64,000 nucleotides of DNA from Escherichia coli (GTDB taxonomy: Bacteria; Pseudomonadota; Gammaproteobacteria; Enterobacterales; Enterobacteriaceae), in NCBI RefSeq assembly GCF_024298765.1, contig NZ_CP101210.1. One strand, written 5' to 3'. Position numbers: made by a program. Positions 6,001 through 7,936 of this stretch are shown piece after piece (position 1 is the stretch's first letter; each line of letters starts with the position of its first letter).

Positions 6001-7936
6001 ACCTTAAAAACAAAAATCCGCCCCGAGAGGCGGATTTTTTATATCACCGAAGTGATTAGAAGCGGTAACCAACACCGGCAATCCAGGTGCCTACGTCAAC
6101 GCTACGAATACGGCTCTGCTCGTAAGAGAAGTCCAGAGCAACGTTTTCCATCGGGTTGAACTGCAGACCAGCACCGTAGGAGAAACCGTAGTCGCTGGTG
6201 TCGTGTTTGTAGGTCGGGTATTCAGTGGTCTGGAATTTACCATAACCCACACCCACTACACCGTAGATGCTTGCCCAGTCGTTAATGCGGTAAGCCGGAC
6301 CAGCAGTGATGCCGTAGTACTGGTTTTTGTTGTAGTCACCAGAGCTTGCAGTACGGCTTTTCTCGGTGTAAGTGAAAGAACCGATCACACCCAGCGGGCT
6401 GTTGTCTTCTTCATAGCGGTATTTCAGGTTGAAACCGCCCATTTTGTTCATTTGGCCCTGAGCGTCGCTCTGTGCGTAACCGCCAGTTACAGTAGAAGTC
6501 GCAGCTACGGAAGTACCTGCGGTGAAAGCCAGAACTGCGGCCAGTGCTGAAAGACATGCAATTTTTTTCATAACCACCTCAAATGTGATTCAAATAAGTC
6601 CTAAGTTTTAAATATATCAAAAATTAATGGGAAACTCTTCGCGATTTGTGATGTCTAACGGGCCATTTCATGTAACAGAACGTTTCCATACACCGCTATC
6701 CATCTAAATTTAAATCACTTTTTCAGAGAACTGCATAAGTATTACGCATGTTTTCCCTGTCATTCATCCAGATTATTCCTAATCACCAGACTAATGATTC
6801 CATCAATCCTGGCGCATTTTAGTCAAAACGGGGGAAAATTTTTTCAACAAATGCTCAACCAGCATTGGGTATATCCAGTACACTCCACGCTTTACTTAGG
6901 TTTAGATATTTGTGGGAGAAAGGATGCCTGGTTCATTACGTAAAATGCCGGTCTGGTTACCAATAGTCATATTGCTCGTTGCCATGGCGTCTATTCAGGG
7001 TGGAGCCTCGTTAGCTAAGTCACTTTTTCCTCTGGTGGGCGCACCGGGTGTCACTGCGCTGCGTCTGGCATTAGGAACGCTGATCCTCATCGCGTTCTTT
7101 AAGCCATGGCGACTGCGCTTTGCCAAAGAGCAGCGGTTACCGCTGTTGTTTTACGGCGTTTCGCTGGGTGGGATGAATTATCTTTTTTATCTTTCTATTC
7201 AGACGGTACCGCTGGGTATTGCGGTGGCGCTGGAGTTCACCGGACCACTGGCGGTGGCGCTGTTCTCTTCTCGTCGCCCGGTAGATTTCGTCTGGGTTGT
7301 GCTGGCGGTTCTTGGTCTGTGGTTCCTGCTACCGCTGGGGCAAGACGTTTCCCATGTCGATTTAACCGGCTGTGCGCTGGCTCTGGGGGCCGGGGCTTGT
7401 TGGGCTATTTACATTTTAAGTGGGCAACGCGCAGGAGCGGAACATGGCCCTGCGACGGTGGCAATTGGTTCGTTGATTGCAGCGTTAATTTTCGTGCCAA
7501 TTGGAGCGCTTCAGGCTGGTGAAGCACTCTGGCACTGGTCGGTTATTCCATTGGGTCTGGCGGTCGCTATTCTCTCGACCGCTCTGCCTTATTCGCTGGA
7601 AATGATTGCCCTCACCCGTTTGCCAACGCGCACATTTGGTACGCTGATGAGCATGGAACCGGCGCTGGCTGCCGTTTCCGGGATGATTTTCCTCGGAGAA
7701 ACACTGACACCCATACAGCTGCTGGCGCTCGGCGCTATCATCGCCGCTTCAATGGGTTCTACGCTGACAGTACGCAAAGAGAGCAAAATAAAAGAATTAG
7801 ACATTAATTAAATTTACATTTCTGCATGGTTATGCATAACCATGCAGAATTTATCGCTACTTTTCCTCTACACCGTCTTTATATATCGAATTATGCAAAA
7901 GCATATTTATTCCGAAAATTCCTGTCGAGCAAATAA

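What the first reader, a model, noticed from the sequence alone, without database searches (positions are those of the whole stretch)
7820..7849. Perfect 30-bp palindrome between rhtA and dps
The 30-mer is exactly self-complementary, centred on atgcat, and lies 9 bp after the rhtA stop and about 260 bp upstream of dps. It could be an AT-rich terminator hairpin or a symmetric protein-binding site in the heavily regulated dps upstream region. A perfect palindrome of this length is unusual.
Basis: seen in the sequence. Interest (0 to 1): 0.25.

Follow-up and report, generated by a model that had tools for sequence, protein, structure and literature searches.

The report
Stem-loop ending the rhtA mRNA
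The perfect 30-bp palindrome is real, but it is simply the RNA hairpin that marks and protects the 3' end of the rhtA messenger in E. coli and its relatives, which is an ordinary kind of element whose 3' end has already been mapped in a published dataset.

Summary
Window 7820-7849 is a perfect 30-bp palindrome, far beyond chance. It is single-copy and 100% identical in 5407 of the 5420 complete E. coli genomes that carry it.

It is best read as RNA. In the rhtA sense strand it folds into a 13-bp stem with a 4-nt loop (-18.7 kcal/mol), starting 9 nt after the rhtA stop codon. A hairpin occupies this position in 72 of 77 Enterobacteriaceae loci:
- 14 of 15 stem pairs show compensatory changes.
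- 93% of cells are paired, against 32-45% in register-shifted controls.
- G·U wobbles outnumber A·C mismatches 44 to 4, so selection acts on the rhtA-sense RNA and not on duplex DNA.
- The spacing between the conserved arms varies (10, 11 or 12 nt), which argues against a protein operator.

A published K-12 dataset (TRS, PMC10687069) maps the primary rhtA 3' terminus 7 nt after this stem. SMRT-Cappable-seq lists rhtA as a monocistronic unit.

The U-rich tail is weak in E. coli and absent in other genera, and the RNA downstream is C-rich and G-poor. This fits the stem-loop class that protects Rho-terminated transcripts, or a weak intrinsic terminator backed up by Rho. Which of the two releases the polymerase is unresolved.

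The verdict is ordinary, with low interest.

The parts
6924..7811 (+). rhtA coding sequence (threonine/homoserine exporter), the gene whose transcript ends at the hairpin. The stop codon TAA is at 7809-7811.
   Evidence: ORF list. RefSeq annotation of the identical or near-identical region in E. coli genomes. tblastn across 77 loci.
7820..7849 (+). Perfect 30-bp palindrome. In rhtA-sense RNA it forms a 13-bp stem (7820-7832 paired with 7837-7849) and a 4-nt loop UGCA (7833-7836).
   Evidence: Sequence. RNA fold -18.7 kcal/mol, z = -5.7. Covariation in 61 sequences. Strand asymmetry of wobble pairs. 100% identical in 5407 of the 5420 complete E. coli genomes that carry it.
7850..7858 (+). 3' tail after the stem: UUUAUCGCU here and UUUCUCGCU in K-12. 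The published K-12 rhtA primary 3' terminus has its peak at 849163-849170 and its dominant position at 849165 on the minus strand. That corresponds to window 7851-7858, dominant 7856, which is 7 nt after the stem.
   Evidence: TRS Supplementary Data 3 and file 6 of PMC10687069. Coordinate conversion. The tail varies between E. coli strains while the stem does not.
7859..7930 (+). C-rich, G-poor stretch of the rhtA-sense strand downstream of the hairpin. It is a candidate Rho-loading (rut) region. This is inferred, not shown.
   Evidence: In the 80 nt after the hairpin, K-12 has C=19 and G=10. Across 70 unique loci the C/G ratio is about 2.2 for +0 to +40 nt and 2.0 for +40 to +80 nt, with C>G in 61-63 of 70. 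Other spacers in the window range from roughly 0.5 to 2.3, so this is only suggestive. The pattern matches that described for Rho-dependent 3' ends in PMC6061677.

Best explanation
The palindrome is transcribed as the last structured part of the rhtA mRNA, where it folds into a 13-bp stem with a 4-nt loop. This stem-loop defines the mature 3' end of the rhtA message, which lies about 7 nt past the stem. It shields the message from 3'-to-5' exonucleases and helps stop rhtA transcription from running into the dps promoter region.

My committed mechanism is as follows. Across Enterobacteriaceae, this is the protective 3' stem-loop without a U-tract that is typical of Rho-terminated transcripts. 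Rho loads on the C-rich, G-poor RNA just downstream, and the resulting tail is trimmed back to the hairpin by PNPase or RNase II. In Escherichia coli the three U residues directly after the stem probably add a weak intrinsic termination component, giving a hybrid or transition-state terminator.

Shown: the hairpin is real, it is conserved as structure, it is selected on the rhtA-sense strand, and in K-12 it coincides with the mapped rhtA 3' terminus of a monocistronic transcript.

Inferred: whether polymerase release is intrinsic, Rho-mediated or both; the protective role against exonucleases; and the insulation of dps.
For: Structure:
- The fold is -18.7 kcal/mol against -6.1 ± 2.2 for shuffles.
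- A hairpin of -13 to -29 kcal/mol lies within 13 nt of the rhtA stop in 72 of 77 loci from about 25 genera.
- On an ordinary MAFFT alignment, 93.2% of cells pair against 32-45% in slid controls, 14 of 15 pairs show double changes, and 0 of 500 shuffles reach the observed score.
- RNAalifold independently finds the same helix.
- There are 31 distinct arm pairs.

RNA and strand:
- Core pairs show G·U 44 against A·C 4.
- The sense strand folds better in 45 sequences and the opposite strand in 10.

3' end:
- TRS lists the rhtA 'Primary' 3' terminus at 849165(-) with this same stem-loop, and a 46-nt 3' UTR.
- That position converts to window 7856.
- SMRT-Cappable-seq lists b0813 only as a monocistronic unit from TSS 850130, with no b0813|b0812 unit next to it.

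Class:
- Tails outside Escherichia score like random sequence (median -2.48 against a random median of -2.29), while the E. coli tail scores -3.97.
- C exceeds G downstream.
- Dar & Sorek describe exactly this architecture for Rho-dependent transcripts, including transition states with reduced U content.

Within E. coli, the stem is invariant while the base pair and tail next to it vary.
Against: - The held tables of Adams et al. 2021 Term-seq contain no 3' end at this site, and the TERMITe supplements contain no entry. Direct support therefore rests on one dataset, in which 2 of 3 LB libraries were significant (adjusted p = 0, 0.185 and 0.0028).
- I could not access any bicyclomycin or exonuclease-mutant data for this site, so Rho involvement is inferred from composition only. 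The C>G bias is moderate and is matched by a few other spacers in the window.
- A 3' end 7 nt from the stem fits intrinsic termination and exonuclease stalling equally well.
- Five of 77 loci lack a strong hairpin, so the element is not indispensable.
Confidence: 0.85

Rival explanations
1. In E. coli the element is a self-sufficient Rho-independent (intrinsic) terminator. The hairpin together with the UUU(A/C)UCG tail releases RNA polymerase 7 nt after the stem. Rho and exonuclease trimming play no significant part.
For: - The mapped 3' end is 7 nt after the stem, the classic distance.
- Three U residues directly follow the stem. The tail score of -3.97 is in the top ~4% of random tails and is as good as that of the dps terminator (-3.64).
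- A minority E. coli variant has a 12-bp stem followed by UUUUCUC.
- rhtA is monocistronic in SMRT-Cappable-seq.
Against: - The element fails the scan criterion of at least 5 T in 8 nt.
- The stem is AT-rich, with 5 G-C pairs out of 13.
- In most other genera the homologous hairpin is followed by AAUAUCC-type sequence with no U run, so what is conserved is the stem and not a terminator tail.
- The tail itself varies between E. coli strains.
Confidence: 0.3
2. The palindrome is a duplex-DNA operator for a dimeric transcription factor that regulates dps or rhtA.
For: - It has perfect twofold symmetry.
- It lies in the 'distal' part of the fragment that the Ozoline group used as the dps regulatory region (window about 7681-7894).
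- The outer arms TTCTGCATG/CATGCAGAA are conserved in sequence in Escherichia, Citrobacter, Salmonella, Enterobacter and Lelliottia.
- TGCAT occurs three times at roughly 10-bp spacing.
Against: - The spacing between the conserved arms is 10, 11 or 12 nt in different genera.
- The arms are replaced by unrelated but mutually complementary sequences in Buttiauxella, Cedecea, Kosakonia and Leclercia, and by different GC-rich hairpins in Klebsiella.
- Mismatches are strongly strand-asymmetric (G·U 44 against A·C 4), which a duplex-DNA site does not predict.
- The element is single-copy in the genome, with no second site.
- It lies more than 160 bp upstream of the OxyR-type repeats.
- My literature searches found no regulator reported for it.
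Confidence: 0.03
3. The palindrome works at the DNA level as a supercoiling-driven cruciform or branched structure, for example as a preferred binding point for Dps in autoregulation.
For: - In Escherichia it is a perfect palindrome with an AT-rich centre, which favours extrusion.
- Melekhov et al. 2015 propose that Dps prefers branched DNA and inverted repeats. They report a DNase I-protected band about 175 bp from primer dps_F1, which I place at about window 7856-7864, right next to the palindrome.
- Antipov et al. 2017 report Dps ChIP signal at the dps locus.
Against: - The same paper found that the distal fragment, which contains the palindrome, binds Dps less well than the proximal fragment, which lacks its left arm.
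- In other genera the hairpin keeps G·U pairs that would be G·T and A·C mismatches in a cruciform, and the loops are 4-8 nt and not symmetric.
- A 30-bp palindrome is short for stable extrusion in vivo (my own background knowledge, not tested here).
Confidence: 0.03
4. The palindrome is a chance sequence feature or a copy of a dispersed repeat family such as REP or another mobile element.
For: None beyond its intergenic position.
Against: - The expected number of 15-nt-arm palindromes in 64 kb is about 6e-5, and none appears in the shuffles.
- It is single-copy in every E. coli genome; the two 'places' per genome are the two strands of one site.
- It is positionally conserved across genera.
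- It has no Rfam match.
Confidence: 0.01

Closest known systems
[quoted passage not shown]
   Same: A stable stem-loop lies immediately upstream of a precise steady-state 3' end. It has no real U-tract (clear in most genera) and no A-tract upstream, and C is mildly enriched over G downstream. Its stem and loop dimensions cannot be told apart from those of intrinsic terminators.
   Different: Rho dependence and exonuclease trimming have not been shown for rhtA. The E. coli copy has three U residues next to the stem, so it may be the 'transition state' those authors discuss. The stem is unusually long and perfect (13 bp) and AT-rich.
Canonical intrinsic (Rho-independent) terminators
   Same: It is a hairpin just after a stop codon. 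The RNA 3' end is 7 nt from the stem base. In E. coli the sequence proximal to the stem is UUU. It separates two genes that point the same way but are regulated differently.
   Different: The tail has only 4 U in 8 nt in E. coli and essentially none in most other genera. The stem is AT-rich (5 of 13 pairs are G-C). There is no A-tract. The conserved part is the stem and not the tail.
REP and other extragenic palindromes that stabilise upstream mRNA
   Same: It is an intergenic palindrome that can block 3' exonucleases at the end of a message.
   Different: It is single-copy, unrelated in sequence to REP, and not a dispersed family.

Membership tests
Intrinsic (Rho-independent) terminator | Stable RNA stem-loop shortly after the end of the gene | tested here: met
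   The fold is -18.7 kcal/mol, with a 13-bp stem and a 4-nt loop, and begins 9 nt after the stop codon. It is AT-rich, however: only 5 of 13 pairs are G-C.
Intrinsic (Rho-independent) terminator | U-rich tract of 7-8 nt immediately 3' of the stem | tested here: inconclusive
   The E. coli tail is UUUAUCGC or UUUCUCGC, with 4 U in 8 nt. It fails the scan criterion but scores -3.97, in the top ~4% of random tails. In other genera the criterion is not met: the median tail score of -2.48 is close to the random median of -2.29, and only 5 of 72 score at or below -3.5.
Intrinsic (Rho-independent) terminator | RNA 3' end 7-9 nt downstream of the stem base in vivo | tested here: met
   From published data: the dominant TRS 3' terminus at 849165(-) corresponds to window 7856, 7 nt after the stem. 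This feature is not specific, because exonuclease stalling could give the same end.
Intrinsic (Rho-independent) terminator | Polymerase release without Rho in purified transcription | not testable with these tools
   This needs in vitro transcription with and without Rho.
Protective 3' stem-loop of a Rho-dependent transcript | Precise steady-state 3' end immediately downstream of a stable stem-loop that lacks a U-rich tract | tested here: met
   The 3' end is mapped at the hairpin. U-richness is absent across genera and only marginal in E. coli.
Protective 3' stem-loop of a Rho-dependent transcript | C-over-G enrichment (rut-like RNA) downstream of the stem-loop | tested here: met
   The C/G ratio is about 2.2 and then 2.0 in the first two 40-nt bins, with C>G in 61-63 of 70 loci, while the rhtA coding end is balanced (C 0.27, G 0.25). 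The effect is moderate, and a few other spacers in the window reach similar ratios.
Protective 3' stem-loop of a Rho-dependent transcript | Read-through increases when Rho is inhibited (bicyclomycin), and longer tails appear in pnp or rnb mutants | not tested
   Dar & Sorek's Table S2 is not held as text. No paper in the library mentions rhtA together with bicyclomycin.
Palindromic operator of a dimeric DNA-binding protein | Half-site sequence and half-site spacing conserved among orthologous loci | tested here: not met
   The spacing is 10, 11 or 12 nt. There are 31 distinct arm pairs, and whole arms are replaced with compensating changes.
Palindromic operator of a dimeric DNA-binding protein | Constraint acts on duplex DNA, so departures from symmetry show no strand bias | tested here: not met
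   G·U 44 against A·C 4 in the core pairs, and the sense strand is more stable in 45 sequences against 10.
Dispersed extragenic palindromes (REP and similar) | Many related copies per genome | tested here: not met
   There is one site per genome in 5420 genomes; the two BLAST 'places' are its two strands. There is only one match in the window.
Any curated Rfam RNA family | Covariance-model match | tested here: not met
   No hit overlaps 7800-7870 even at E-value up to 1.

The most novel reading that the evidence does not exclude
The hairpin may be more than a passive 3' cap. Its outer stem sequence (UUCUGCAUG/CAUGCAGAA) is kept unusually constant across at least five genera. It also sits at the upstream edge of the dps control region, next to a reported in vitro Dps-protected band. 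It could therefore be a specific recognition element, for example for a protein such as ProQ that binds 3'-end hairpins, or a U-tract-independent termination and insulation signal. Alternatively, as DNA, it could be a structure that Dps senses, coupling rhtA read-through or local supercoiling to dps expression.
Probability: 0.05. Interest if true: 0.45.

Novelty: already known. Interest (0 to 1): 0.1.

Why it matters
It matters little beyond annotation. It gives rhtA a defined 3' UTR of about 45 nt and a 3'-end hairpin. It shows that the 'distal dps regulatory region' used in some Dps-binding studies contains the rhtA terminator hairpin, which should be kept in mind when interpreting those fragments. 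It is also a clean, covariation-supported example of a 3' stem-loop that is conserved across a bacterial family while its U-tail comes and goes, in line with the idea that terminators drift between Rho-dependent and intrinsic modes. For rhtA overexpression in amino-acid production strains, the hairpin is a natural mRNA-stabilising end worth retaining.

Tried and rejected
- Rfam scan at permissive E-value: nothing at the site.
- Simple terminator scan: the site is not called, because the tail has only 4 T in 8 nt.
- Literature searches for rhtA with dps and terminator and for rhtA with bicyclomycin: no papers.
- Adams et al. 2021 Term-seq tables: no 3' end at about 849165 in the held files. I first searched the wrong coordinate system; K-12-like locus L001 is offset by about 777 bp from NC_000913.3.
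- TERMITe supplements: no entry.
- Supplements of Dar & Sorek 2018, Choe et al. 2022 and the Rend-seq annotation paper: not held as text.
- The TRS legend gave offsets that did not fit the data. I re-derived them from the thrL attenuator row before converting coordinates.
- The NsrR-like or GntR-like operator idea, based on the ATGCAT centre and TGGT..ACCA, came from memory only. I dropped it because the central part is not conserved outside Escherichia and Citrobacter.
- The C>G bias as proof of a rut site was downgraded to suggestive after the control on other spacers in the window.
- My first attempt to fetch related loci failed because the dps start coordinate was off by one.

Full report
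**1. The observation**

The window is E. coli. A 451-bp stretch around the site is 100% identical to strain 104 and 95-99% identical to nearly all other complete E. coli genomes, where it is annotated as rhtA followed by dps. In the window, both genes are on the + strand:
- rhtA is at 6924-7811, with its stop codon TAA at 7809-7811.
- dps is at 8111-8614.

Positions 7820-7849 read TTCTGCATGGTTATGCATAACCATGCAGAA, which is exactly self-complementary and centred on ATGCAT.

It is far beyond chance:
- The next longest perfect palindrome in the 64 kb is 12 bp.
- None of 200 Markov shuffles exceeded 12-nt arms.
- No other close inverted repeat in the window has perfect arms longer than 11 nt.

**2. 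Population and copy number**

The 30-mer occurs once per genome; the two BLAST places per genome are its two strands. It is 100% identical in 5407 of the 5420 complete E. coli genomes that carry it. The few variants change only the outermost A to T, leaving a 12-bp stem followed by UUUUCUC. Differences between E. coli lineages cluster immediately after the stem (AATTTATC, AATTTCTC, AAATTCTT, ATTTTCTC), while the stem itself is untouched. It is not a dispersed repeat and matches no Rfam family.

**3. Comparative evidence that it is a structure**

I fetched 80 loci around Dps homologues from one genome per species and located the end of rhtA in 77 of them.
- In 72 of 77 loci, a hairpin of -13 to -29 kcal/mol lies within 13 nt of the rhtA stop.
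- In Escherichia, Citrobacter, Salmonella, Enterobacter, Lelliottia and others, the outer arms TTCTGCATG/CATGCAGAA persist while the inner stem and loop change.
- In Kosakonia and Phytobacter (TTCAGCATG/CATGCTGAA), Buttiauxella (TTTACCGTGG/CCACGGTAAA), Cedecea-like strains (TTTAATGCGG/CCGCATTAAA) and Leclercia (TTTTGCCGG/CCGGCAAAA), both arms have changed together.
- Klebsiella and a few others carry unrelated GC-rich hairpins at the same place.
- Pseudocitrobacter, Trabulsiella and Klebsiella indica have short spacers and no strong hairpin.

An ordinary MAFFT alignment of the 62 nt after the stop codon from 61 distinct sequences puts the arms in register without any structural guidance. On that alignment:
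- 93.2% of cells form standard pairs, against 32-45% when the 3' arm is slid by 1-3 columns.
- 14 of 15 pairs show changes on both sides (161 cells).
- 0 of 500 column shuffles reach the observed covariation score.
- RNAalifold independently predicts the same helix.
- There are 31 distinct arm pairs.

**4. RNA or DNA, and which strand**

A duplex-DNA site or a cruciform treats the two strands alike. An RNA tolerates G·U but not A·C.
- In the 12 core pairs there are 44 G·U cells against 4 A·C cells.
- The rhtA-sense strand folds more stably in 45 sequences and the opposite strand in 10.
- The spacing between the conserved 8-mers TCTGCATG and CATGCAGA is 10, 11 or 12 nt in different genera, which a rigid dimeric DNA-binding protein would not tolerate.

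Selection therefore acts on a hairpin in the rhtA-sense transcript. The full palindromy through the loop is confined to Escherichia and is about a 1-in-16 coincidence once the stem reaches a 4-nt loop.

**5. Direct transcript evidence from the literature**

The TRS study (Nat Commun 2023, PMC10687069) lists in Supplementary Data 3 a 'Primary' 3' terminus for rhtA in K-12:
- minus strand, peak 849163-849170, dominant position 849165
- signal 0.91
- adjusted p = 0, 0.185 and 0.0028 in three LB libraries
- fold sequence ...AUUUCUGCAUGGUUAUGCAUAACCAUGCAGAAUUUCUCGC, with a 13-bp stem at -18.7 kcal/mol

Another table in the same paper gives rhtA (849210-850097) a 46-nt 3' UTR.

The legend's offsets did not fit the data. 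The thrL attenuator row shows that the fold sequence ends 1 nt past the terminus. With the rhtA stop at 849210 equal to window 7811, and no indels in this stretch, the terminus is window 7856, 7 nt after the stem. The K-12 RNA therefore ends ...GCAGAA-UUUCUCG.

SMRT-Cappable-seq (PMC6131387) lists b0813 only as a monocistronic unit from TSS 850130, next to a separate b0812 unit. The held tables of Adams et al. 2021 Term-seq and the TERMITe compendium have no entry here, so direct support rests on one dataset.

**6. How it most likely works**

*What is shown.* The palindrome is the 3'-terminal stem-loop of the rhtA mRNA.

*What is inferred.* How the polymerase is released is not established.

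The simple terminator scan does not call the site, because the tail has only 4 T in 8 nt. I used a tail score recalled from TransTermHP (the formula is from memory). By that score:
- the E. coli tail scores -3.97, in the top ~4% of random tails and comparable to the dps terminator at -3.64;
- the median across 72 loci is -2.48, essentially the random value of -2.29.

So the stem is what has been conserved, and U-richness is a local feature of Escherichia.

Downstream of the hairpin, the sense strand is C-rich and G-poor. The C/G ratio is about 2.2 and then 2.0 in the first two 40-nt bins, and C exceeds G in 61-63 of 70 loci, whereas the end of the rhtA coding region is balanced. Other spacers in the window range from about 0.5 to 2.3, so this is suggestive only.

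This is the architecture that Dar & Sorek (PMC6061677) describe for Rho-dependent transcripts. It has a stable stem-loop without a U-tract at the steady-state 3' end, mild C-over-G enrichment and rut sites just downstream, and trimming by PNPase and RNase II back to the hairpin. They explicitly mention transition states with reduced U content, where weak intrinsic termination is backed up by Rho.

I therefore commit to this reading: a protective stem-loop of the Rho-dependent type across the family, with a weak intrinsic component added in E. coli. A 3' end at +7 fits both intrinsic release and exonuclease stalling, so it does not discriminate between them.

**7. Rivals**

- **Self-sufficient intrinsic terminator in E. 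coli.** This remains plausible (about 0.3).
- **Duplex-DNA operator.** It is disfavoured by the variable spacing, the replaced arms, the strand asymmetry, the single copy, and a position more than 160 bp upstream of the OxyR-type ATAG/CTAT repeats (8015-8062, read directly).
- **Cruciform or Dps-binding role.** This was prompted by work from the Ozoline group. Their 214-bp distal fragment (primers map to window about 7681-7894) contains the palindrome, their primer dps_F2 begins inside its right arm, and a Dps-protected band about 175 bp from dps_F1 falls right after the palindrome. However, they found that this distal fragment binds Dps less well than the proximal one, and the G·U pairs in other genera do not fit a DNA structure.
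- **Chance or a repeat family.** Both are excluded.

**8. Comparison with known kinds, and novelty**

It works like a terminator or 3'-end protective hairpin. The membership tests gave these results:
- Canonical intrinsic terminators: the U-tract criterion is inconclusive in E. coli and not met elsewhere.
- Rho-dependent protective class: the sequence-level criteria are met, but Rho and exonuclease dependence were not tested.
- REP elements, operators and Rfam families: it is not a member of any.

The specific 3' end with this hairpin is already listed in a published supplement, so I rate it as already known. What this analysis adds is the family-wide covariation, the strand test, and the observation that the tail is not conserved. 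Interest is low (0.1).

The most novel reading not excluded is that the unusually constant outer stem is a specific recognition element, or a DNA structure tied to dps control. I give that about 5%.

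Noticed in passing
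L087:1748-2445 (E. coli HS30-1, NZ_CP029492.1): An IS1X2 element is inserted in the rhtA-dps spacer about 125 nt after the rhtA stop. That places it downstream of the hairpin and upstream of the dps promoter, so this strain has its distal dps upstream region displaced by about 0.8 kb.
   Followed up: no
L034, L036, L055, L077, L018, L021, L028, L012; also L014, L016, L046, L060, L069, L008: Klebsiella, Pluralibacter-like strains and Raoultella terrigena carry unrelated GC-rich hairpins at the same position after rhtA. Pseudocitrobacter, Trabulsiella and Klebsiella indica have short rhtA-dps spacers (115-217 nt) and no strong hairpin. The element has therefore been replaced or lost several times.
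   Followed up: partly
window 1-64000: Apart from 7820-7849, the longest perfect palindrome in the window is 12 bp, whereas first-order Markov shuffles usually give 14-18 bp. The real sequence seems to avoid palindromes, which makes the rhtA hairpin stand out even more.
   Followed up: no
window 8605-8687: The dps terminator (GGCTTCCTGACAGGAGGCC at 8657, followed by GTTTTGTTTT) gives weak, sub-threshold Rfam hits to ctRNA_p42d and STnc70. These are probably just generic terminator-hairpin similarity. TRS and Adams et al. both map the dps 3' end there.
   Followed up: no
window about 7856-7864: Melekhov et al. 2015 report a band protected from DNase I by Dps about 175 bp from primer dps_F1. By my primer mapping this falls immediately 3' of the palindrome, at the same place as the rhtA RNA 3' end. 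Their oligonucleotide Y5 starts at about 7861.
   Followed up: partly
window 7823-7846: TGCAT (or its complement ATGCA) occurs three times inside the palindrome at about 10-bp spacing in Escherichia and Citrobacter, but the central copy is absent in Enterobacter and other genera. It is probably a by-product of the stem sequence.
   Followed up: partly
L006 and L076: E. coli-like dps genes (97% and 92% identity) sit on contigs of 703 and 573 bp in assemblies labelled Marinobacter sp. BW6 and Streptomyces polyasparticus. They look like enterobacterial contamination of those assemblies.
   Followed up: no
PMC10687069, Supplementary Data 3 legend: The legend states that the fold sequence runs from 40 nt upstream to 10 nt downstream, and the U-tract sequence from 20 nt upstream to 10 nt downstream. 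The thrL attenuator row shows the real windows are about 50 up and 1 down, and 10 up and 20 down. Coordinates taken from the legend at face value would misplace 3' ends by about 10 nt.
   Followed up: yes
window 11289-11314: A perfect 11-bp stem with a 4-nt loop (GCCTCCCTTTC....GAAAGGGAGGC) lies just after the ORF ending at 11281. By synteny with the annotated glnH-glnP-glnQ cluster in L087, that ORF is probably glnQ. The hairpin is likely the terminator of the glnHPQ operon.
   Followed up: no
window 7887-7905: A short imperfect inverted repeat, TATGC-AAAA-GCATA, lies in the spacer. It is conserved among E. coli lineages, but its left arm is not conserved in E. albertii. Its function is unknown and it may be a chance feature.
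   Followed up: no
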